A DNA stretch of 64,000 nucleotides from positions 3,542 to 67,541 of the forward strand of contig JAGGXW010000003.1 in NCBI GenBank assembly GCA_021162815.1, in the 5' to 3' direction. This DNA is from Thermoplasmata archaeon (GTDB lineage: Archaea > Thermoplasmatota > E2 > UBA202 > JdFR-43). Of this stretch, positions 7,773 to 13,846 are shown piece by piece. Position numbers and translations under genes: made by a program. How positions within the stretch are numbered: the first letter of the stretch is position 1; every line of letters starts with the position of its first letter. Under the pieces are notes generated by a model that was given only the letters and a program-made list of their open reading frames with translations, was not told where the DNA came from and made no database searches.

Positions 7773-8018
7773 TTACCTCCTTTTCTTCTTTATTTTTTCA
7801 TCAAGAAGCATCAGAAGCTCCTCTATTTCATCCTCGCTCACATAGCTCTCTCTCTGCTCCATTTTTATCTCAAATAATCTCAGTCTTATTGCCTCCTTGC
7901 ATAATTCAGCGACACTGGTATAACCCAGCTCGGGATTTTTTGTTATAAGCTTTTCAATTTCCTCGTGAAGCTCCTTCGGTATTGAAATGGTGCTGTACTT
8001 GAGTTTCTTCTCTTCCAT
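7773..8018 (-). CDS. Ribbon-helix-helix (CopG/Arc/MetJ-like) DNA-binding protein
   Basis: 81 aa. The N-terminus KYSTISIPKELHEEIEKL fits the RHH beta-strand and first helix. It is a clear paralog of the ORF at 8999..9226. Confidence 0.6.
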   Translation of the reverse strand: MEEKKLKYSTISIPKELHEEIEKLITKNPELGYTSVAELCKEAIRLRLFEIKMEQRESYVSEDEIEELLMLLDEKIKKKRR

Positions 8019-8065
8019 AAAGCCTAATGTATATATTGATATATTTATTTTACTATTGTTTTGAG
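8019..8065. promoter_or_regulatory. Bidirectional AT-rich promoter region with a palindromic TATA-like element between the RHH gene and the AGT-EndoV gene
   Basis: TGTATATATTGATATATTTATTTT lies about 25 to 35 nt upstream of the ATG at 8066, and on the other strand upstream of the ATG at 8018. This fits archaeal TATA spacing for leaderless transcripts. Confidence 0.3.
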
Positions 8066-8968
8066 ATGGGTGTTAATATTCCAGATTTATATGAAGAAAC
8101 TTACATGCTAACAAAGCAGATTCCGAGGGGCGAGGTATCAACCTACGGCGCAATAGCCAGGGCGCTGGGCGATGTGATTGCGGCCCGAGCAGTTGGAAAG
8201 ATGCTGCATGAGAATCCATATAAGGAGGTGCCATGCTATCGTGTCATTCATTCTGATGGCAGGGTTGGAGGCTATGCTGGAGGTGTGGAGAAGAAAATTG
8301 AGATGCTTAAAAGAGATGGAATTGAGATAATAAATGGAAAAATTGATCTGAACAAATACCTGTTTGATGATTTTGTTACGGACATGCCATTAAAGAGGCT
8401 GAGAGAGGAGCAGGTGAGGGTAGCATCCATGGTAAAGCAGGATGGAGAACTGGAATGGAAGATAATAGGGGGGATGGATGTTTCGTACGGCAACTACGCC
8501 CACGGAGCATATGTTGAGATGGACAGTAATGGCAGGATAATAAGAGGTTATACTGTTTCAATGAAGATAAGATTTCCCTATATTCCCACATATCTTGCAT
8601 TCAGAGAGCTTCCCGTTCTGGAGAGGCTGTATGAAAAGGCAGAGGCGGATATAATAATGGTGGATGGAAATGGTATTCTCCATCCCTTAATGGCGGGTCT
8701 TGCAAGCCATTTTGGTGTTGTTATGGATGTGCCAACCATAGGTGTTGCAAAGAAATTACTCCTCGGAGAGATTTTGAATGATAGCATCATATTTAATGGA
8801 AAGGTTGTTGGAAAAAAGGTTGGCAGGGTTTACATCTCTCCAGGACATAAAATTGGTGTTGAAAGTGCGGCAAAAATTGCAAAAAATTTTATGAAATACT
8901 CCATTCCAGAGCCAGTAAGGCAGGCTCACATTCTTGCCAATAAGGAGAGGAGAAAGAGAGAGGGATAA
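8066..8968 (+). CDS. nfi: Bifunctional O6-alkylguanine-DNA alkyltransferase (C-terminal AGT domain) fused to endonuclease V
   Basis: N-terminal ~90 aa show the AGT DNA-binding and active-site pattern (STYGAIARALG ... AARAVGKMLHENP ... VPCYRVI ... GGYAGG). The remainder carries EndoV motifs (GMDVSY, YIPTYLAFRELP, VDGNGILHP, GVAKK). The ORF track starts at 8027, but its first 13 aa read like translated promoter sequence, so the start used here is the ATG at 8066. Confidence 0.8.
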   Translation: MGVNIPDLYEETYMLTKQIPRGEVSTYGAIARALGDVIAARAVGKMLHENPYKEVPCYRVIHSDGRVGGYAGGVEKKIEMLKRDGIEIINGKIDLNKYLFDDFVTDMPLKRLREEQVRVASMVKQDGELEWKIIGGMDVSYGNYAHGAYVEMDSNGRIIRGYTVSMKIRFPYIPTYLAFRELPVLERLYEKAEADIIMVDGNGILHPLMAGLASHFGVVMDVPTIGVAKKLLLGEILNDSIIFNGKVVGKKVGRVYISPGHKIGVESAAKIAKNFMKYSIPEPVRQAHILANKERRKREG

Positions 8969-8980
8969 ATTATATATTTC
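8966..8980 (+). promoter_or_regulatory. TATA-like box upstream of the second RHH gene
   Basis: AAATTATATATTT lies about 20 to 30 nt upstream of the ATG at 8999. Confidence 0.3.
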
Positions 8981-8998
8981 CCTCATGATTTAGTGAGC

Positions 8999-9226
8999 AT
9001 GGTAAAATACAGTACCGTCTCCATACCAAAAGAACTCCACGAGGAGATAAGAAGGACTGTTCTCGCTGACCCGAGGTTCAAATACAGGAGTGTGGCTGAA
9101 TTTTCTATAGAGGCCATACTTATAAGACTGGATGAAATAAGAAGAGAACTTGAAAAGGAGAAAAGAAATAGAAAAAAAAGACTGGCAAAAATTGTCCAGG
9201 ACATTAAAAAGGAGCTGAAGCTGTAG
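8999..9226 (+). CDS. Ribbon-helix-helix DNA-binding protein (paralog of 7773..8018), first gene of the ten-gene operon
   Basis: MVKYSTVSIPKELHEEIRR aligns with KYSTISIPKELHEEIEK of the other RHH gene. The ORF track opens at 8993 with a GTG, and the ATG at 8999 is more plausible. Confidence 0.6.
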   Translation: MVKYSTVSIPKELHEEIRRTVLADPRFKYRSVAEFSIEAILIRLDEIRRELEKEKRNRKKRLAKIVQDIKKELKL

Positions 9227-9271
9227 TAGAAAAGTTTATATATTTGTTGCTATATATGCAAAATGGTGATT

Positions 9272-9317
9272 TAATATGCCATGGGGTTATGGATTTGGTA
9301 GAGGATGGAGAATGGGA
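9272..9317 (+). repeat. Direct repeat, copy 1 (about 42 nt spanning RBS/start of micro-protein A)
   Basis: TAATATGCCATGGGGTTATGGATTTGGTAGAGGATGG recurs at 9489..9535 with one mismatch plus a 1-nt indel. Confidence 0.7.
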
Positions 9318-9491
9318 AGAGGAAGAGGATTTGGAGCCACACTTGGTTACTGTCCATATACAGGCTTACCAAGAGGCTGGAGATGGTTTATGCCTTATGG
9401 AAACGCAGGGGCGTATGGATACAGAGTGCCGTACACATACTACACACCTTATACACCATATTACAGGCCATACTATCCATGGTGGTGGTAA
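9276..9491 (+). CDS. Gly/Tyr/Trp-rich low-complexity micro-protein A (71 aa)
   Basis: MPWGYGFGRGWRMGRGRGFG ... YYRPYYPWWW. It shares its first 11 aa and about 42 nt with the next ORF, and its stop lies 2 nt before the next ATG. Confidence 0.45.
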   Translation: MPWGYGFGRGWRMGRGRGFGATLGYCPYTGLPRGWRWFMPYGNAGAYGYRVPYTYYTPYTPYYRPYYPWWW

Positions 9492-9535
9492 TAATGCCAT
9501 GGGGTTATGGATTTGGTAGAGGATGGGGAATGGGA
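9489..9535 (+). repeat. Direct repeat, copy 2
   Basis: See copy 1. Confidence 0.7.
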
Positions 9536-9706
9536 TGGCAGTACGGCATGCCATGGCAGCAGTATGGACAGTCATACATGCCTTATCAGCCATACCAGCC
9601 AAGTGTTGAGCAGGAACTTTATATGATTGAGCAGGAATTGAATGCCATAGAGGCAAATCTCGCAAACATAAAGAGAAGGCTTGAGGAGCTGAAAAGAAAT
9701 AAATAG
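9494..9706 (+). CDS. Gly/aromatic-rich micro-protein B with C-terminal coiled coil (DUF5320-like architecture)
   Basis: MPWGYGFGRGWGMGWQYGMPWQQYG ... followed by the heptad-like EQELYMIEQELNAIEANLANIKRRLEELKRNK. The ORF track merges it into the longer, implausible ORF at 9305. Confidence 0.5.
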   Translation: MPWGYGFGRGWGMGWQYGMPWQQYGQSYMPYQPYQPSVEQELYMIEQELNAIEANLANIKRRLEELKRNK

Positions 9707-9722
9707 GGATAGGGTTTAAGGG

Positions 9723-10229
9723 TTGATTAATATGAGAATACTTGTAGCGACAAATTCAGGTGGACTGGATGACATGGTATCATCGGTTTTTGCAAGAAGC
9801 CCCACATTTACTATAATAGAGGCTGATGGGCAGGAAATAAAGGATGTTAAGGTTATACCGAATCAGTTTGCAAACGCCGTACATGGAGCGGGAATACAGG
9901 CAGGCCAGTTTGTGGTGAGCCAGGGAATAGATGTGGCAGTTGCAGGCAATTTTGGGCCCAATGTTTCCTCCATACTTGCCCAGGCAGGGGTGAAGGCAAT
10001 TCCCGCCCAGGGAGTGGTGAAAGATGTCGTCAATGACATACTCTCTGGAAACATGCAGGCTCAATCATTGGCAACTCCAGCACCATCCTATCCTTCTCCG
10101 CAGCAGTATGCACCACCACCCTCCATAAATCCAGATGAAAAAATAGATGAGATGGAGGAGAAGATAGCAAGAATAGAGGCGATGATAAAGGAAATAAAGG
10201 ATATGCTGAAGCATCTCAGGGAGGAATAA
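9723..10229 (+). CDS. NifX/NafY-like dinitrogenase FeMo-cofactor family domain protein (PF02579-like) with Pro/Gln linker and coiled-coil tail
   Basis: MRILVATNSGGLDDMVSSVFARSPTFTIIE ... GAGIQAGQFVVSQGIDVAVAGNFGPNV ... AGVKAI fits the NifX-like fold. The C-terminus PQQYAPPPS ... EKIARIEAMIKEIKDMLKHLREE resembles the tail of micro-protein B. Confidence 0.75.
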   Translation: MINMRILVATNSGGLDDMVSSVFARSPTFTIIEADGQEIKDVKVIPNQFANAVHGAGIQAGQFVVSQGIDVAVAGNFGPNVSSILAQAGVKAIPAQGVVKDVVNDILSGNMQAQSLATPAPSYPSPQQYAPPPSINPDEKIDEMEEKIARIEAMIKEIKDMLKHLREE

Positions 10230-10230
10230 A

Positions 10231-10461
10231 ATGGCAATGGGCATGGGCAGAGGAGCAGGCGCAGGCAGCGGCAAAGGAAGAGGAGCCGGAGGCGGAGCAG
10301 GCGGCGGCTACGGCGGTAGAGGCAGAGGCGGAGGAAGAGGAGCAGGGCCAGGTGGAGAGTGCAGGTGCCCTGCTTGTGGCTATACCATGCCTCATCAGCC
10401 AGGTGTGCCATGCTTTCAGCTTACCTGCCCCAAGTGCGGGGCAAAGATGATAAGAGTTTAA
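10231..10461 (+). CDS. Gly/Arg-rich micro-protein with C-terminal C4 zinc ribbon
   Basis: GRGAGAGSGKGRGAGGGAGGGYGGRGRGGGRGAGPGG followed by CRCPAC ... CPKC, four Cys in ribbon spacing. Its ATG is 2 nt after the upstream stop, and its stop abuts the next ATG. Confidence 0.5.
   Translation: MAMGMGRGAGAGSGKGRGAGGGAGGGYGGRGRGGGRGAGPGGECRCPACGYTMPHQPGVPCFQLTCPKCGAKMIRV
10240..10355 (+). repeat. GC-rich (GGN)n simple-sequence tract inside the micro-protein gene
   Basis: About 115 nt of GGC/GGA/AGA/GCA repeats in an otherwise AT-rich window. Confidence 0.6.
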
Positions 10462-11298
10462 ATGATAATAGCTGTTGCAAGCGGAAAGGGGGGCACAGGC
10501 AAAACAACCGTTGCGACAAATCTGGCCATCTCCATAGGAAAAGCCCGCATACTTGATTGCGATGTTGAGGAGCCAAATGCCAACATTTTCCTTAAATTTG
10601 ACATGGAAAAGAAGGAGGATGTGAATGTTCTCATTCCATCCATAGATAAGCAGAAGTGCACACTCTGCGGGGATTGTGTGAATGCATGCAGATATAATGC
10701 CCTCGCAATGTTGCCAAAGGATATTCTTCTTTTTCCAGAGCTTTGCCATGGATGCGGGCTATGCAGCATGGTTTGCAAATATGATGCAATAACCGAGGTG
10801 CCGAGAAAGATAGGTGAGATACTATATGGAAAAAATGAGGAAATAGAACTGTATCAGGGTCTCCTCAACATTGGAGAGGCGATGGCAACACCCATAATAA
10901 AGGAGTTGAAGAAATATTCCAATGATATGACAATAATAGATGCTCCTCCAGGAAATGCATGCCCCACCATGGAGGCGATAATAGATTCAGATTTCGTCAT
11001 TCTTGTTACAGAGCCAACTCCATTTGGCCTTCATGATTTGAAGATTGCTGTAAGCATTGTGAGAAAATTTGGAATACCTTTTGGAGTGATAATAAACAAG
11101 TATGGAATAGGTGATGATGGAGTGGAAAAATACTGCGAGCAGGAGGGGATAAGGATTATGATGAAAATACCCCACAGCAGGGAAATAGCAAATCTTTACT
11201 CCAAGGGCATACCCTTCGTTGAAAAAATGGAGGGATGGAAGGAAAGATTTATTGAGCTTTATGAGGAGATAAAAAATGAAACAGGTGGCAATAGCTAG
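10462..11298 (+). CDS. MinD/ParA-family P-loop ATPase with inserted 2x[4Fe-4S] ferredoxin domain
   Basis: Deviant Walker A SGKGGTGKTT. Two ferredoxin-type Cys clusters (CTLCGDCVNAC and CHGCGLCSMVC) are inserted after the P-loop. Confidence 0.85.
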   Translation: MIIAVASGKGGTGKTTVATNLAISIGKARILDCDVEEPNANIFLKFDMEKKEDVNVLIPSIDKQKCTLCGDCVNACRYNALAMLPKDILLFPELCHGCGLCSMVCKYDAITEVPRKIGEILYGKNEEIELYQGLLNIGEAMATPIIKELKKYSNDMTIIDAPPGNACPTMEAIIDSDFVILVTEPTPFGLHDLKIAVSIVRKFGIPFGVIINKYGIGDDGVEKYCEQEGIRIMMKIPHSREIANLYSKGIPFVEKMEGWKERFIELYEEIKNETGGNS

Positions 11299-12133
11299 TG
11301 GAAAGGGTGGAACAGGAAAGACAACCCTCACTGCATCATTTGCATCTCTGGCAAAAGATAATACTGTATTTGCAGATTGCGATGTGGATGCATCAAATCT
11401 CCATTTAATTTTTGATCCCGTTGTTAAGGAAAAGGAGGATTTCTACGGCATGGAGCTGGCTGTTGTTGACAAGGAGAAATGCATAATGTGCATGGAGTGT
11501 AAGAAGGCATGCAGGTTCGATGCTATAACAGAGAATATTGACATAATAGCGGAGAGATGCGAGGGATGTGGTGTATGCGAATATGTATGCCCCGTCAAGG
11601 CAATAGAAATGAAGCCAAGGAAATCGGGAGAGGTTTTTGTCTCGGAATCAAGATTTGGATGGCTTGTTCATGCAAGGCTCAATATCGGTGAGGAAACAAG
11701 CGGGAAGCTGGTGGCGGCGGTGAGGAATAAAGCCAAAGAGGTGGCAGAGAAGAATGGTAAAGATATGATAATAATAGACGCTCCGCCAGGCGTTGGATGC
11801 CCCGTTATTGCTTCCATAAGTGGCGTTAATCTCGTTGTTATTGTTGTTGAACCCACGTCTGCTGCAATTCATGATATGAAGAGGGTTAAGGAGGTTGCAG
11901 ATCACTTTAAGGTGCCATGTGCTGTGTGCATAAATAAATATGATATAAATGAGGAGAAGGCAAAGGAGATTGAGGAGTATTGCAGGGAGAATGGAATTGA
12001 GATTGTTGGCAAGATTCCCTATGATACAGTTATCACAGATGCGATGGTGAATGGCAAGAGTGTTGTTGAATACAATAAGAAAGTGGCAAATATTATGAAA
12101 GATATATGGATAAATGTCAAAAATAAATTATAA
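11276..12133 (+). CDS. MinD/ParA-family P-loop ATPase with inserted 2x[4Fe-4S] ferredoxin domain (paralog)
   Basis: SGKGGTGKTT with CIMCMECKKAC and CEGCGVCEYVC. Overlaps the upstream gene by 23 nt. Confidence 0.85.
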   Translation: MKQVAIASGKGGTGKTTLTASFASLAKDNTVFADCDVDASNLHLIFDPVVKEKEDFYGMELAVVDKEKCIMCMECKKACRFDAITENIDIIAERCEGCGVCEYVCPVKAIEMKPRKSGEVFVSESRFGWLVHARLNIGEETSGKLVAAVRNKAKEVAEKNGKDMIIIDAPPGVGCPVIASISGVNLVVIVVEPTSAAIHDMKRVKEVADHFKVPCAVCINKYDINEEKAKEIEEYCRENGIEIVGKIPYDTVITDAMVNGKSVVEYNKKVANIMKDIWINVKNKL

Positions 12134-12620
12134 GGTGCTGAAAAGGATAAAGCTCGTGATTACAGTTATTATAATTGCTGGAGTTATAATTGACACCACC
12201 CTTGTTTACATGGCTGCAAGTTCTCTCAAAATAAATGGAGAGAGAATAAACGGAATATATCCTGAAAATGTTGTTAAGGGCTATTATGAGGTTAAATTTG
12301 AGTTGCAGATTGAAAATCCACAGGACAAGAGCATAGAGGTTGATTACATAAGTTACAACGTTTATATAAACAATGAATTTGTGGGAAAGGGAGCAAAACC
12401 TGCTTTTTCAATTCCTCACGGGGTGCATAACTACACATTCAGCTTGACATTCAACATTTACAATCTCTCTTCATCAACTTCTTCCATAATAATGAATCAG
12501 GGAAACGTGGATGTTAAAATTAAAGGGGATGTTATTGTTCCATTGAAATTTCTTGGCTTATTCACATGGAGGTATATAAAATTGCCATATGAGAAGACTG
12601 AGAATGTGAGAATAAAATGA
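12114..12620 (+). CDS. LEA14/WHy-like (LEA-2 family) membrane-anchored protein
   Basis: N-terminal TM helix followed by a beta-rich domain whose pattern (VKGYYEVKFELQIENPQDKSIEVDYISYNVYINN) is typical of LEA-2/NDR1-like folds. Overlaps the upstream gene. Confidence 0.45.
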   Translation: MSKINYKVLKRIKLVITVIIIAGVIIDTTLVYMAASSLKINGERINGIYPENVVKGYYEVKFELQIENPQDKSIEVDYISYNVYINNEFVGKGAKPAFSIPHGVHNYTFSLTFNIYNLSSSTSSIIMNQGNVDVKIKGDVIVPLKFLGLFTWRYIKLPYEKTENVRIK

Positions 12621-13846
12621 AAAAGGAATTGCTCAAAGCAGGATATAAAAGTGCGTTTTATGTTCTCATAGCCACTTTTGCCCTCTCCATATTCAAACTT
12701 GCTGCAGGTATAATCTCAAACACTCTTGTTGTGGTTGTTGATGGTATGCATTCAATGGTTGATATGGTTGTTCTGATGGTGGCATACATTGGAATAAGAA
12801 TATCATGCAAGGAACCTGATAGAAAATTTCAGTATGGGTATTACAAGGCGGAGAGCATAGCCTCTCTTTTCATTTCTTTATTCATTTTTATTGTTGCATT
12901 TAAATTCATGTACGAAGGCTATATGGCTCTTTTTAAAGAGCCTGAGAGCAAAATGCCATATCTTGCAATATTTGCAACAATCGTTTCCATAATCTCCTCA
13001 TATCTCATGTCTGTTTATCTTCTCAAAGCGGGAAAGAAAACAAAGATGCACTCCCTCATAGCCACATCAAATGAAAGAAAAATGGACATGCTTTCCTCCC
13101 TGATTGTCATTATTGCAATAGTGCTTGGTATGTACCACATAAGATATGTTGAGGGGATAATAACCATGGGCATAGCAGCAATAATACTGAAGACAGGCAT
13201 TCTGAGCTTAAGAGATGCCATAGCCTCTCTCATGGATGTGAGCCCGAGAGATGCTGAGGAGAGAGTAAGAAAAATACTGGAAAATGCCAGAATAAGAGGA
13301 TACAAGGATTTAAAGCTTAGAAAGGCAGGGCCCTTCATATTCGGAGAGGTGAAAATTCTGCTCGATGCATCAATGGATATCCAGTCAGCCCATGATATTG
13401 CAGATGAAATTGAAGAAAAGGTAAAGAAAATAGGGAATGTTGATGGTTTCATAACCCATATCGAGCCATATTCTGGAGATGAGGTTAAGATGGCAATACC
13501 TGTGGAGAAAAGAAGCGGTGATGCAAACATAAGCAGAATATTCGGAAGATCCAGATATTTCATGCTCGTTTATATTGATACAAAGAATAAGGGCATAAAG
13601 AAACTATTCTTTGAGGACAATCCCCATCACGCAAAGGAAAAGCACGCTGGATTGGCGGCCGCCAGCATGCTTGCGGAGACGGGCGTGAGGTGCGTGGTGG
13701 TGAATAAGATAGGGGAGATAGCGTATTATGCTTTGAAAAATAAGGGAATCAGGATTTTTGAGTATGATGGCAGGGCTCTGGAGGCTGTGGATGAGTATAT
13801 GAAAGGGAAGCTTAAGGTGTTGAAAGAGCCAAAGAAGGTGGAATGA
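12617..13846 (+). CDS. Cation diffusion facilitator (CDF) metal transporter fused to a C-terminal NifX-like (PF02579-like) domain
   Basis: Six TM helices with the CDF signature (VVDGMHSMVDM, HxxxD sites). These are followed by the usual cytoplasmic CDF C-terminal domain and then an extra ~100 aa (RIFGRSRYFMLVYIDTKNKGIKKLFFEDNP ... LAETGVRCVVVNKIGEIAYYALKNKGIRIFE) matching the NifX-like fold. Confidence 0.8.
   Translation: MKKELLKAGYKSAFYVLIATFALSIFKLAAGIISNTLVVVVDGMHSMVDMVVLMVAYIGIRISCKEPDRKFQYGYYKAESIASLFISLFIFIVAFKFMYEGYMALFKEPESKMPYLAIFATIVSIISSYLMSVYLLKAGKKTKMHSLIATSNERKMDMLSSLIVIIAIVLGMYHIRYVEGIITMGIAAIILKTGILSLRDAIASLMDVSPRDAEERVRKILENARIRGYKDLKLRKAGPFIFGEVKILLDASMDIQSAHDIADEIEEKVKKIGNVDGFITHIEPYSGDEVKMAIPVEKRSGDANISRIFGRSRYFMLVYIDTKNKGIKKLFFEDNPHHAKEKHAGLAAASMLAETGVRCVVVNKIGEIAYYALKNKGIRIFEYDGRALEAVDEYMKGKLKVLKEPKKVE

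What the first reader, a model, noticed from the sequence alone, without database searches (positions are those of the whole stretch)
9272..9706. Tandem pair of Gly/Tyr/Trp-rich micro-protein genes that share a 42-nt direct repeat at their starts
Two adjacent ORFs (71 and 70 aa) both begin MPWGYGFGRGW, encoded by a near-identical 42-nt segment (9272..9317 and 9489..9535). They are separated by only 2 nt.

Copy A ends in an extraordinary aromatic tail (TYYTPYTPYYRPYYPWWW). Copy B replaces that tail with a clean heptad coiled coil (EQELYMIEQELNAIEANLANIKRRLEELKRNK). The C-terminal coiled-coil tail of the downstream NifX-like protein resembles the tail of copy B.

This looks like a recent partial duplication of an intrinsically disordered RGG/YG-type module with swapped C-terminal oligomerisation tails. 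The pair may act as a scaffold or as a phase-separating component of the operon.
Basis: seen in the sequence. Interest (0 to 1): 0.6.

Follow-up and report, generated by a model that had tools for sequence, protein, structure and literature searches.

The report
Free-standing IssA tail micro-protein pair
The two tiny genes are real and conserved; the first is a stand-alone copy of the tail by which the archaeal iron-sulfur storage protein IssA is thought to bind iron-sulfide chains. The second is a coiled-coil DUF5320 protein, so here an IssA-like protein appears to be built from separate pieces.

Summary
ORF A (9276-9491, 71 aa) and ORF B (9494-9706, 70 aa) are 2 nt apart and share their first 42 nt at 41/42 identity.

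The interpretation needs revising.
- The A+B pair is old. It occurs in at least five other Thermoplasmata lineages, but there the two 5' ends match at only 10-20 of 42 nt. The repeat is therefore a gene conversion of A's start onto B, specific to this lineage.
- A is not generic low-complexity sequence. It carries a near-invariant motif, GATLGYCP[WY]TG[LM]PRGWRW, under purifying selection.
- A is homologous to the C-terminal tail of Pyrococcus furiosus IssA (hhalign 98.9 %, E 1e-17). In the published model that tail binds the iron-sulfide polymer thioferrate.
- B is a member of Pfam DUF5320: a disordered aromatic N-terminus followed by a confident 32-residue helix.
- Elsewhere A and B are one protein, or B's module is fused to the neighbouring NifX/IssA-type domain.
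- In this window the NifX-like protein has a proline-rich linker and a coiled coil where IssA has its tail. Two MinD-ferredoxin ATPases follow, as at the P. furiosus issA locus.

Best reading: a modular IssA-like iron-sulfur system with its tail supplied in trans. The homologies are shown; the mechanism is inferred. Public gene calls miss A.

The parts
9227..9270 (+). Conserved upstream block: archaeal BRE/TATA-like TAGAAAAGTTTATATATTTG (9227-9246), a second TATATAT (9251-9257) and a Shine-Dalgarno-like GGTGAT (9265-9270). A would be the first gene of the transcription unit.
   Evidence: The block is nearly invariant across the five split loci aligned, while sequence further upstream is unrelated. 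Promoter function is inferred from the archaeal consensus, not tested.
9276..9491 (+). Gene A, 71 aa: a free-standing homolog of the IssA C-terminal tail. Net charge +8, no acidic residue, 34 % aromatic, one Cys, ends in PWWW.
   Evidence: 18 homologs found. hhalign against Thermococcales IssA gives 98.9 %, E 1.1e-17. BLASTP against P. furiosus IssA gives 11/20 identities on the core, E 5e-5. Composition. AlphaFold2 mean pLDDT 45.6 with no secondary structure. No Pfam or NCBIfam hit.
9276..9317 (+). Copy 1 of the 42-nt direct repeat (codons 1-14 of A); the inferred donor.
   Evidence: A orthologs all start MPWG[FRK]GFG.
9333..9386 (+). Core motif of A, residues 20-37: GATLGYCPYTGLPRGWRW. It contains the single Cys (C26).
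   Evidence: 13 invariant columns across 19 sequences. 7-10 synonymous versus 1-2 non-synonymous codon differences out of 18 between the window and relatives. The same motif, GSILGYCPWTGMP, holds the only Cys of P. furiosus IssA (PMC5524996).
9494..9706 (+). Gene B, 70 aa: a DUF5320 (PF17253) member with a Gly/Trp/Tyr/Gln/Pro-rich N-terminus lacking the Cys core, then a coiled coil. Probably translationally coupled to A, because the TGGTGGTGG codons for A's WWW form a GGTG-type Shine-Dalgarno sequence just before B's ATG.
   Evidence: Pfam 36.5 bits against a cutoff of 27, profile positions 36-99 of 99. Orthologs sit directly after A in five other lineages, with a stop/start overlap (TAATG) or a gap of 1-2 nt. 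Coupling is inferred from the sequence.
9494..9535 (+). Copy 2 of the 42-nt repeat; the inferred recipient of a gene conversion.
   Evidence: B orthologs start MFGMGWGW or MPYGMGWGY, and their first 42 nt match A's at only 10-20 positions. The ancestral GMGW is still visible directly after the converted tract.
9605..9700 (+). Coiled-coil helix of B (residues 38-69). It contains an internal 21-nt (one heptad) imperfect tandem repeat at 9606-9626 / 9627-9647.
   Evidence: AlphaFold2 helix 38-69 with pLDDT above 90. 9 of 10 a/d positions hydrophobic. Repeat family D5.
9732..10229 (+). IssA/NifX-type protein (Nitro_FeMo-Co domain), 165 aa: globular domain, proline-rich linker, then a four-heptad coiled coil (about 10134-10226) where IssA carries its cationic tail.
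   Evidence: PF02579 at 57 bits. 35 % identity to P. furiosus IssA, E 2e-17, running from the domain into the Pro-rich linker. Best solved relative is MTH1175 (1eo1); the Desulfovibrio orange protein ORP (2wfb) also matches. Heptads 8/8.
10231..10461 (+). 76-aa micro-protein: Gly/Arg-rich N-terminus (net +6) followed by a double-CxxC zinc ribbon.
   Evidence: Only weak zinc-ribbon hits. Conserved at this position in the split loci. Its role is not established.
10462..12133 (+). Two overlapping MinD/ParA-type P-loop ATPases, each with a 2x[4Fe-4S] ferredoxin insert (10462-11298 and 11276-12133). This is the Orp3/Orp4-type architecture.
   Evidence: CbiA/ParA plus Fer4 hits. Present downstream in many related loci. 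The P. furiosus issA locus has two similar genes placed divergently. Orp3/Orp4 are described in PMC6345978.
12114..13846 (+). Probable operon tail: an LEA_2 membrane protein (12114-12620) and a cation-diffusion-facilitator transporter fused to a second NifX-type domain (12617-13846).
   Evidence: Pfam. The same two genes follow in relative L001. Belonging to the same system is inferred from overlapping gene ends and conserved order.

Best explanation
A and B are the two halves of a DUF5320-type small protein that has been split in one Thermoplasmata lineage. [quoted passage not shown]

**Shown here**
- A is homologous to the IssA tail. Both have Gly/Arg/Trp repeats, the LGYCP[WY]TG[LM]P motif holding the only Cys, an aromatic end in WW(W), about 70 residues, a net charge of +7 to +8 and no acidic residue.
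- B is a DUF5320 member made of a disordered aromatic segment and a coiled coil.
- The next gene encodes an IssA-type NifX domain. Its proline-rich linker ends in a coiled coil instead of a tail.
- The three modules (NifX domain, tail core, coiled coil) are distributed over one, two or three polypeptides in different lineages.
- The 42-nt identity is a gene conversion specific to this lineage that overwrote B's start with A's.

**Inferred**
- As proposed for IssA, the NifX-type domain would nucleate an anionic iron-sulfide polymer, either thioferrate (FeS2-)n or a related Fe-S species.
- A would supply, in trans, the cationic and aromatic tail that wraps and neutralises the polymer.
- The coiled coils of B and of the NifX-like protein would pair with each other, or self-associate, to make the assembly multivalent.
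- B's aromatic N-terminus would contact A's aromatic region.
- Encoding A first, with B probably translationally coupled to it, would let the cell set the ratio of tail to nucleating domain.
- The two MinD-ferredoxin ATPases would load or mobilise the iron-sulfur material.
For: **Homology of A to the IssA tail**
- Profile-profile probability 98.9 %, E 1.1e-17; pairwise E 5e-5.
- Sequences shown; length and composition match.
- A Thermococcus IssA ortholog was recovered by the exhaustive search with the A-family profile.

**Selection on A**
- Invariant core.
- 7-10 synonymous versus 1-2 non-synonymous codon changes out of 18.

**B**
- Pfam DUF5320 above the curated cutoff; confident helix.

**Module shuffling** (64 genome loci)
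- Core plus coiled coil in one gene, next to NifX with a coiled coil: 24 loci.
- Core plus coiled coil in one gene, next to NifX with a Gly/Arg tail: 12 loci.
- Core without a coiled coil, next to a NifX-[Gly/Arg/aromatic]-coiled-coil fusion: 10 loci. The members checked against Pfam carry PF02579 + PF17253.
- Split A + B + NifX with a coiled coil: 5 genome loci plus the window and metagenome loci.
- A+B concatenated aligns colinearly with the long forms, and the lengths agree.
- B aligns as a long form lacking the core block.

**The NifX-like protein**
- 35 % identical to IssA, E 2e-17. Closest solved structure is MTH1175, which the IssA paper places in the IssA clade (PMC5524996).

**Locus context**
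- MinD-Fer4 genes lie next to issA in P. furiosus as well.

**IssA tail model**
- From PMC5524996.

**Gene conversion**
- 41/42 identity in the window versus 10-20/42 in five other split loci.
Against: - No biochemical, expression or proteomic data exist for this locus. Binding of thioferrate or any Fe-S species by A is extrapolated from a model of the IssA tail that the authors themselves proposed but did not test by mutation.
- A has no coiled coil, so how it joins the assembly is unknown.
- In 12 loci the only coiled coil is on the DUF5320-type protein and the NifX partner has none. Pairing between different proteins therefore cannot be universal, and self-association is equally possible.
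- B's N-terminus has only one basic residue, so B is not itself a cationic tail.
- In P. furiosus, thioferrate-like iron still forms without IssA (PMC8219758), so the physiological role of the whole family is unsettled.
- Fission and tandem duplication followed by reciprocal loss cannot be told apart.
- No multimer structure prediction was possible with the tools available.
Confidence: 0.6

Rival explanations
1. A and B are accessory subunits of an ORP-type (orange protein) complex, as in Desulfovibrio. There, MinD-ferredoxin proteins (Orp3/Orp4) and a NifX-type protein (Orp8) form a metalloprotein complex linked to cell division and matured by an Mrp-type Fe-S carrier. On this reading the small proteins tether or localise discrete clusters rather than a thioferrate mineral.
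For: - The two MinD/ParA + 2x[4Fe-4S] genes have the Orp3/Orp4 architecture (PMC6345978).
- The NifX-like protein also matches the solved ORP structure 2wfb, E 6.6e-7.
- One bacterial relative (L014) has a sigma-54 activator gene immediately upstream on the opposite strand, resembling the orp regulator arrangement (PMC4641369).
Against: - The NifX-like protein is closer to IssA (E 2e-17) and MTH1175 (E 8e-13) than to ORP.
- No MrpORP is present; the best NCBIfam score is 25-51 bits against a cutoff of 450.
- The specific sequence homology of A is to the IssA tail.
- The ORP literature that could be read describes no such small proteins. Fievet 2011 was not held, so the identity of DVU2107 could not be checked.
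- The two readings do not exclude each other.
Confidence: 0.2
2. One reading: a recent partial duplication of a generic disordered RGG/YG module whose two copies acquired different oligomerisation tails and act as a phase-separating scaffold with no specific ligand.
For: - 41/42-nt identity at the two starts.
- Predicted disorder of A and of B's N-terminus.
- Gly/Arg/aromatic composition.
Against: - The pair is conserved in other lineages that lack the repeat.
- A has an invariant Cys-containing motif under purifying selection that is shared with IssA.
- A and B correspond to complementary parts of a single-gene long form.
- The genes are tightly linked to NifX/IssA-type genes in about 56 of the 64 loci; most of the rest are cut off by a contig end.
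Confidence: 0.1
3. A is not a functional gene. The real product would be the 133-aa ORF (9305-9706) called by public pipelines, or the repeat would be an assembly artefact.
For: - Gene callers on two public assemblies call the 133-aa ORF and omit A.
- The exact sequences of A and B are absent from the protein collection.
Against: - The 5' extension of the 133-aa ORF and the 91-aa frame contain stop codons in relatives, whereas A's frame is conserved with mostly synonymous changes.
- A orthologs are called as genes in other assemblies.
- A has its own conserved promoter and Shine-Dalgarno block.
- The repeat is identical in three assemblies.
Confidence: 0.03

Closest known systems
IssA (iron-sulfur storage protein A, PF2025, Pyrococcus furiosus; Vaccaro et al. 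2017, PMC5524996)
   Same: - The NifX/IPR003731 domain is 35 % identical to the window's NifX-like protein, and both are followed by a proline-rich linker.
- The last ~45 residues of the IssA tail are homologous to A: Gly/Arg/Trp repeats, LGYCPWTG[LM]P with the sole Cys, and a WW end. Length (~70 aa) and net charge (+7 versus +8, no acidic residues) also match.
- MinD-ferredoxin genes lie adjacent in both loci.
   Different: - IssA is a single polypeptide. Here the tail (A) is a separate gene placed upstream, and the NifX-like protein ends in a coiled coil.
- A third protein (B, DUF5320) with a coiled coil is present.
- A has a long Tyr/Pro-rich stretch between the core and its WWW end that IssA lacks.
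- Thioferrate binding has been shown only for whole IssA and, heterogeneously, for its isolated domain. Nothing has been tested for this locus.
Pfam DUF5320 (PF17253), function unknown
   Same: - B passes the curated threshold.
- The one-gene long forms of the A family also hit PF17253.
- Canonical DUF5320 proteins (N-terminus MPxGDGTGP...GYCAG, then Gly/Arg/aromatic, then coiled coil) are weak hits of the A-family profile.
   Different: - B matches only profile positions 36-99 and lacks the N-terminal Cys-containing part.
- A does not hit the Pfam model at all.
- The LGYCPWTGLPRGWRW core is separate from the canonical MPxGDGTGP N-terminus; P0029 has both.
- No function or link to IssA is recorded in the two papers that mention DUF5320.
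[quoted passage not shown]
   Same: - An operon that combines a single-domain NifX-type protein with two MinD-like ATPases carrying 2x[4Fe-4S] motifs.
- Restricted to anaerobes (PMC6345978).
   Different: - No MrpORP or Orp5 homolog was recognised in the window's operon, and the promoter is archaeal rather than sigma-54 dependent.
- Orp8 binds a Mo-Cu-S cluster non-covalently.
- The small Gly/aromatic proteins are not part of the described complex.
Eukaryotic RGG/YG low-complexity domains (FUS-like)
   Same: Gly/Arg/Tyr-rich composition, predicted disorder and a likely role in multivalent assembly.
   Different: No homology. A has a fixed, Cys-containing motif, and its inferred partner is an inorganic anionic polymer rather than RNA.

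Membership tests
Pfam DUF5320 (PF17253) | Score above the curated gathering threshold of the family model | tested here: met
   B scores 36.5 bits against a cutoff of 27, E 1.2e-8, profile positions 36-99 of 99.
Pfam DUF5320 (PF17253) | The same test applied to A | tested here: not met
   No Pfam family at E <= 1. A is related only through the one-gene long forms that carry both the A core and a PF17253 coiled coil.
IssA (P. furiosus PF2025 type) | N-terminal IPR003731 / Nitro_FeMo-Co globular domain of the IssA clade | tested here: met
   The window protein at 9732-10229 hits PF02579 at 57 bits. It is 35 % identical to IssA, E 2e-17. Its best solved relative is MTH1175, placed in the IssA clade by PMC5524996. 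No phylogenetic tree was built.
IssA (P. furiosus PF2025 type) | Cationic, aromatic, Gly-rich tail with a single Cys, covalently attached to the C-terminus after a Pro-rich region | tested here: not met
   The tail exists and is homologous (A) but is a separate polypeptide. The NifX-like protein has the Pro-rich region followed by a coiled coil.
IssA (P. furiosus PF2025 type) | Binds thioferrate-type (FeS2-)n and assembles into 20-300 nm particles | not testable with these tools
   Requires anaerobic purification or reconstitution, XAS/EPR and electron microscopy.
IssA (P. furiosus PF2025 type) | Expression induced by sulfide when iron is sufficient | not testable with these tools
   No expression data are available for this uncultured Thermoplasmata archaeon.
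ORP complex (D. vulgaris) | Two MinD-like proteins, each with two [4Fe-4S] ferredoxin motifs (Orp3/Orp4) | tested here: met
   10462-11298 and 11276-12133 hit CbiA/ParA plus two Fer4 stretches each.
ORP complex (D. vulgaris) | MrpORP (Orp9): Mrp/NBP35 P-loop domain fused to a Nitro_FeMo-Co domain | tested here: not met
   NCBIfam NF041136 gives partial hits of 25-51 bits against a cutoff of 450. No such fusion occurs between 9200 and 13900.
ORP complex (D. vulgaris) | Sigma-54 promoter with a cognate enhancer-binding protein | tested here: not met
   The locus is archaeal with a conserved TATA-type block. A sigma-54 activator was seen only in the bacterial relative L014.

The most novel reading that the evidence does not exclude
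DUF5320 as a whole would be the trans-acting counterpart of the IssA tail. Across anaerobic archaea and bacteria, a NifX-type nucleating domain, a cationic-aromatic Cys-containing tail and a coiled coil would be interchangeable parts of one modular machine for handling iron-sulfide minerals, spread over one to three polypeptides. This would give DUF5320 a function and explain how tail-less IssA homologs such as MTH1175 could still work. It would also show that an inorganic-polymer-binding disordered tail can be supplied as a separate micro-protein whose dose is set independently.
Probability: 0.35. Interest if true: 0.75.

Novelty: new variant of a known kind. Interest (0 to 1): 0.6.

Why it matters
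[quoted passage not shown] How its disordered tail works, and how widespread the system is, remain open questions.
- This locus shows that the tail is a conserved, motif-bearing module that can exist as a free 71-residue protein. It also ties that module to DUF5320, a family with no assigned function that sits beside NifX-type genes in many anaerobes.
- That gives a concrete experiment: mix the separate parts with iron and sulfide and ask which are needed for polymer binding and particle formation. The fused IssA protein does not allow this.
- There is a practical annotation point as well. Gene callers miss A and fuse B to an out-of-frame extension, so such tail genes are probably under-counted.

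Tried and rejected
- **Homolog search with B**: no candidates, because the word index needs shared 5-mers. B orthologs were instead read from loci fetched through A.
- **Pfam and NCBIfam on A**: no hits.
- **Bacterial promoter/terminator scan**: counts equal the shuffled expectation and the organism is archaeal. I used an alignment of upstream regions instead.
- **Rfam at a permissive threshold over 8500-10800**: nothing, so no known RNA element explains the repeat.
- **PDB search with the A-family profile**: only influenza HA2 at E about 0.005 (a Gly-rich peptide followed by a coiled coil). I judged this spurious.
- **AlphaFold2 on A**: mean pLDDT 45.6 with no structure. This fits disorder but is uninformative with only 19 sequences.
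- **Fievet et al. 2011 on the orp operons**: not held, so I could not check whether DVU2107 is a DUF5320 protein.
- **First coiled-coil heuristic**: too strict, because it rejected Tyr-containing heptads. It was replaced.
- **RiPP-precursor idea for A**: considered because one relative (L011) has a radical SAM gene nearby. Rejected because that neighbour is not conserved.
- **The WWW end as a mere by-product of B's Shine-Dalgarno sequence**: considered and rejected as the sole explanation, because one-polypeptide IssA proteins also end in WW.
Full report
**1. The observation**

The window comes from an uncultured Thermoplasmata archaeon. Its NifX-like protein is identical to MCD6512019 from a Thermoplasmata metagenome-assembled genome.

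- ORF A is 9276-9491 (71 aa) and ORF B is 9494-9706 (70 aa). Both are on the + strand and 2 nt apart.
- Their first 14 codons (9276-9317 and 9494-9535) are identical at 41 of 42 nt.
- A 33-nt exact core occurs twice in the window and never in 100 shuffles.
- The same 560 nt, with both copies, occur in two other public assemblies. A Logan contig ends about where copy B starts, as expected at a real repeat.

**2. Both ORFs are genes; the alternative frames are not**

- A search with A found 18 relatives with an almost invariant block, G-x-G-A-x-L-G-Y-C-P-[WY]-T-G-[LM]-P-R-G-W-R-W.
- Between the window and two relatives, this block differs at 7-10 synonymous but only 1-2 non-synonymous codons out of 18. 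The 91-aa frame and the 5' extension of the 133-aa ORF are broken by stops in relatives.
- A 45-nt block upstream of A is conserved in the five split loci aligned: TAGAAAnnTTTATATATTT, then TATATAT, then GGTGAT. Sequence further upstream is unrelated. A therefore probably heads the transcription unit.
- Public gene calls on this very sequence report a 133-aa "DUF5320" ORF, which is B plus an out-of-frame extension across A, and omit A. This explains why neither exact sequence is in the protein collection.

**3. What B is**

- B passes the Pfam DUF5320 threshold (36.5 bits against 27), matching profile positions 36-99 only.
- AlphaFold2 gives a disordered N-terminus (pLDDT below 50 over most of residues 1-28) and one helix at residues 38-69 with pLDDT above 90.
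- 9 of 10 heptad a/d positions are hydrophobic.
- Only two papers mention DUF5320, and neither concerns its function.

**4. What A is**

An exhaustive profile search of 1.84 billion representative proteins found only 51 hits at E <= 1e-3. Of these, 17 carry the strict motif.

One hit is a Thermococcus NifB/NifX-family protein in which the motif sits at the end of a C-terminal tail, after a proline-rich linker. Searching with that protein recovered the 179-aa Pyrococcus furiosus protein. Its length and organism match IssA (PF2025) as described in PMC5524996.

- Its tail reads ...FGWGRGWGKGRGWGRGWGSILGYCPWTGMPSRRALRWYYGWW.
- A reads MPWGYGFGRGWRMGRGRGFGATLGYCPYTGLPRGWRWF...YYPWWW.
- Profile-profile comparison of the A family with eight Thermococcales IssA proteins gives 98.9 % probability, E 1.1e-17. 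The pairwise BLASTP is E 5e-5.
- A has 71 residues, net charge +8, no acidic residue and one Cys. The IssA tail has 69-70 residues, net charge +7, no acidic residue and one Cys.

The IssA paper describes this tail as proline-rich and then cationic, aromatic and glycine-rich, holding the protein's only cysteine. It proposes that the tail wraps anionic thioferrate electrostatically, with the aromatic residues stabilising the assembly. A is therefore a free-standing IssA tail. AlphaFold2 finds no fold in it (pLDDT 45.6), which fits the disorder-until-bound idea but is weak evidence.

**5. The neighbourhood is IssA-like**

- The next gene (9732-10229) has a Nitro_FeMo-Co domain. It is 35 % identical to IssA, with the alignment running into the proline-rich linker. 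Its closest solved relative is MTH1175, an IssA-clade member according to the IssA paper.
- Where IssA has its tail, this protein has a four-heptad coiled coil.
- Next comes a Gly/Arg-rich zinc-ribbon micro-protein, then two MinD/ParA ATPases with 2x[4Fe-4S] inserts, an LEA_2 membrane protein and a CDF transporter fused to a second NifX-type domain.
- Two MinD-ferredoxin-type genes also lie next to issA in P. furiosus.
- The MinD-ferredoxin pair plus a NifX-type protein is also the architecture of the Desulfovibrio ORP complex.

**6. One-copy and two-copy states**

A scan of one genome per species for CP[WY]TG[LM]PRG returned 64 loci. Most are Thermoplasmata, DHVE2 or Aciduliprofundum genomes. 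The rest are WOR-3, Hydrothermota, Aminicenantes, Caldisericota and Clostridia genomes. A NifX-type gene follows directly in about 56 of them, and most of the remainder are cut off by a contig end. Four architectures recur:

| Architecture | Loci |
|---|---|
| Tail core and coiled coil in one 88-144-aa protein, next to NifX with a coiled coil | 24 |
| The same one-gene form, next to NifX with a covalent Gly/Arg tail | 12 |
| Tail core without a coiled coil, next to NifX fused to a Gly/Arg/aromatic segment and a coiled coil | 10 |
| Split form: A (ending PWW or PWWW), B, NifX with a coiled coil, zinc ribbon and two MinD-Fer4 | 5 genome loci, plus the window and metagenome loci |

- For the third architecture, the fusions checked against Pfam carry PF02579 + PF17253 in one chain.
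- The split form is documented.
- Concatenated A+B (126-141 aa) aligns colinearly with the DHVE2 long forms (111-134 aa). The A/B junction falls in the Tyr/Pro-rich linker.
- Aligned on its own, B looks like a long form lacking the core block.
- The pair therefore arose by fission, or by tandem duplication with reciprocal loss, of a DUF5320-type gene. I cannot tell which.
- The fusions are Rosetta-stone evidence that the tail core, the coiled-coil module and the NifX domain work together.

**7. The 42-nt repeat**

- In five other split loci the first 42 nt of A and B agree at only 10-20 positions. A always begins MPWG[FRK]GFG, and B begins MFGMGWGW or MPYGMGWGY.
- Only in this window does B begin with A's sequence, after which the ancestral GMGW resumes.
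- The repeat is therefore a recent gene conversion from A to B, bounded by short homologies (ATGCC at one end, G[AG]AATGGGA at the other). It is not the origin of the pair.
- It suggests that the Gly/aromatic N-termini are interchangeable.

**8. Mechanism (inferred)**

By analogy with IssA:
- The NifX-type domain would nucleate an anionic iron-sulfide polymer.
- A would provide the cationic-aromatic tail in trans.
- The coiled coils on B and on the NifX-like protein would pair or self-associate to make the scaffold multivalent.
- The MinD-ferredoxin ATPases would load or mobilise the material.

Caveats:
- A has no coiled coil.
- 12 loci have a coiled coil only on the DUF5320 partner.
- B's N-terminus is barely basic.
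- P. furiosus still forms thioferrate-like iron without IssA, although the deletion strain grows poorly at high iron and sulfide.

An ORP-type role with discrete clusters remains possible and does not exclude the IssA-like reading.

**9. Novelty**

- B is an ordinary member of a known family of unknown function.
- The IssA paper notes that tails vary and that some homologs lack one. It does not describe a conserved motif outside Thermococcales or tails encoded as separate genes.
- None of the eight papers that mention both IssA and thioferrate, and neither of the two that mention DUF5320, was seen to link the two.
- I rate this a new variant of a known kind. It is of moderate to good interest to iron-sulfur specialists, and it is directly testable.

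Noticed in passing
window 10231-10461 (+): A 76-aa micro-protein with a Gly/Arg-rich N-terminus (24 Gly, net +6 in 42 residues) followed by CxxC...CxxC (GGECRCPACGYTMPHQPGVPCFQLTCPKCGAKMIRV). It is conserved at this position in the split loci. In L013 the order is reversed: zinc ribbon first, then a Gly/Arg tail ending GRGRW. It has no family assignment. IssA was purified with about one Zn per monomer (PMC5524996).
   Followed up: partly
window 12617-13846 (+); also L001 7301-8198: A cation-diffusion-facilitator transporter (Cation_efflux + ZT_dimer) fused at its C-terminus to a second Nitro_FeMo-Co (NifX-type) domain. It is preceded by an LEA_2 membrane protein (12114-12620) and both overlap the operon's gene ends. 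This suggests metal transport is coupled to the system.
   Followed up: no
window 9305-9706; L080 and L082 1074-1475: Public gene calls on this sequence report a 133-aa DUF5320 protein, which is B plus an out-of-frame 5' extension across A. A itself is not annotated, so stand-alone tail genes like it are probably under-counted in protein databases.
   Followed up: yes
window 9606-9647 (+): Inside B's coiled coil, two adjacent 21-nt units (one heptad each, EQELYMI / EQELNAI) are 71 % identical. This looks like an internal heptad duplication.
   Followed up: no
window 8993-9226 (+) and 7773-8018 (-): Two paralogous small proteins of about 80 aa share KYST[VI]SIPKELHEEI and end in a basic helix. 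They resemble ribbon-helix-helix regulators but have no Pfam hit. One ends 50 nt before A's promoter block, but it is not a conserved neighbour in relatives.
   Followed up: partly
window 8027-8968 (+): The Pfam hits recorded for the same gene in L080 show a fusion of a methylated-DNA methyltransferase DNA-binding domain (PF01035) with endonuclease V (PF04493).
   Followed up: no
L083 3084-4836 (-), P. furiosus COM1 CP003685: The two MinD-ferredoxin-type genes divergent from issA appear fragmented into five short calls, and one Walker A motif is degenerate (GGKGWNWKIY). They may be pseudogenised or frameshifted in this strain.
   Followed up: partly
L006 4955-5314 (+): In one split-form relative an extra 119-aa protein sits between the NifX-like gene and the zinc ribbon. 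It has a Gly/Arg-rich N-terminus and a PF04060 (putative Fe-S cluster) domain, making it another metal-binding module with a cationic Gly/Arg extension.
   Followed up: no
L014 2110-5444; L008 4336-5276: Bacterial relatives carry two NifX-type genes in tandem, one with a coiled coil (or DUF5320 fusion) and one with a long covalent Gly/Arg tail ending GRGW or GKGWF. L014 also has a sigma-54 activator gene immediately upstream on the opposite strand, resembling the Desulfovibrio orp locus.
   Followed up: partly
P0029 (158 aa, Logan contig): A single protein combines the canonical DUF5320 N-terminus (MPYGDCTGPDGQGPMTG) with the IssA-type core (GAQLGYCPWTGMPRGWRW). The two motifs are therefore separate modules that can occur together.
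   Followed up: no
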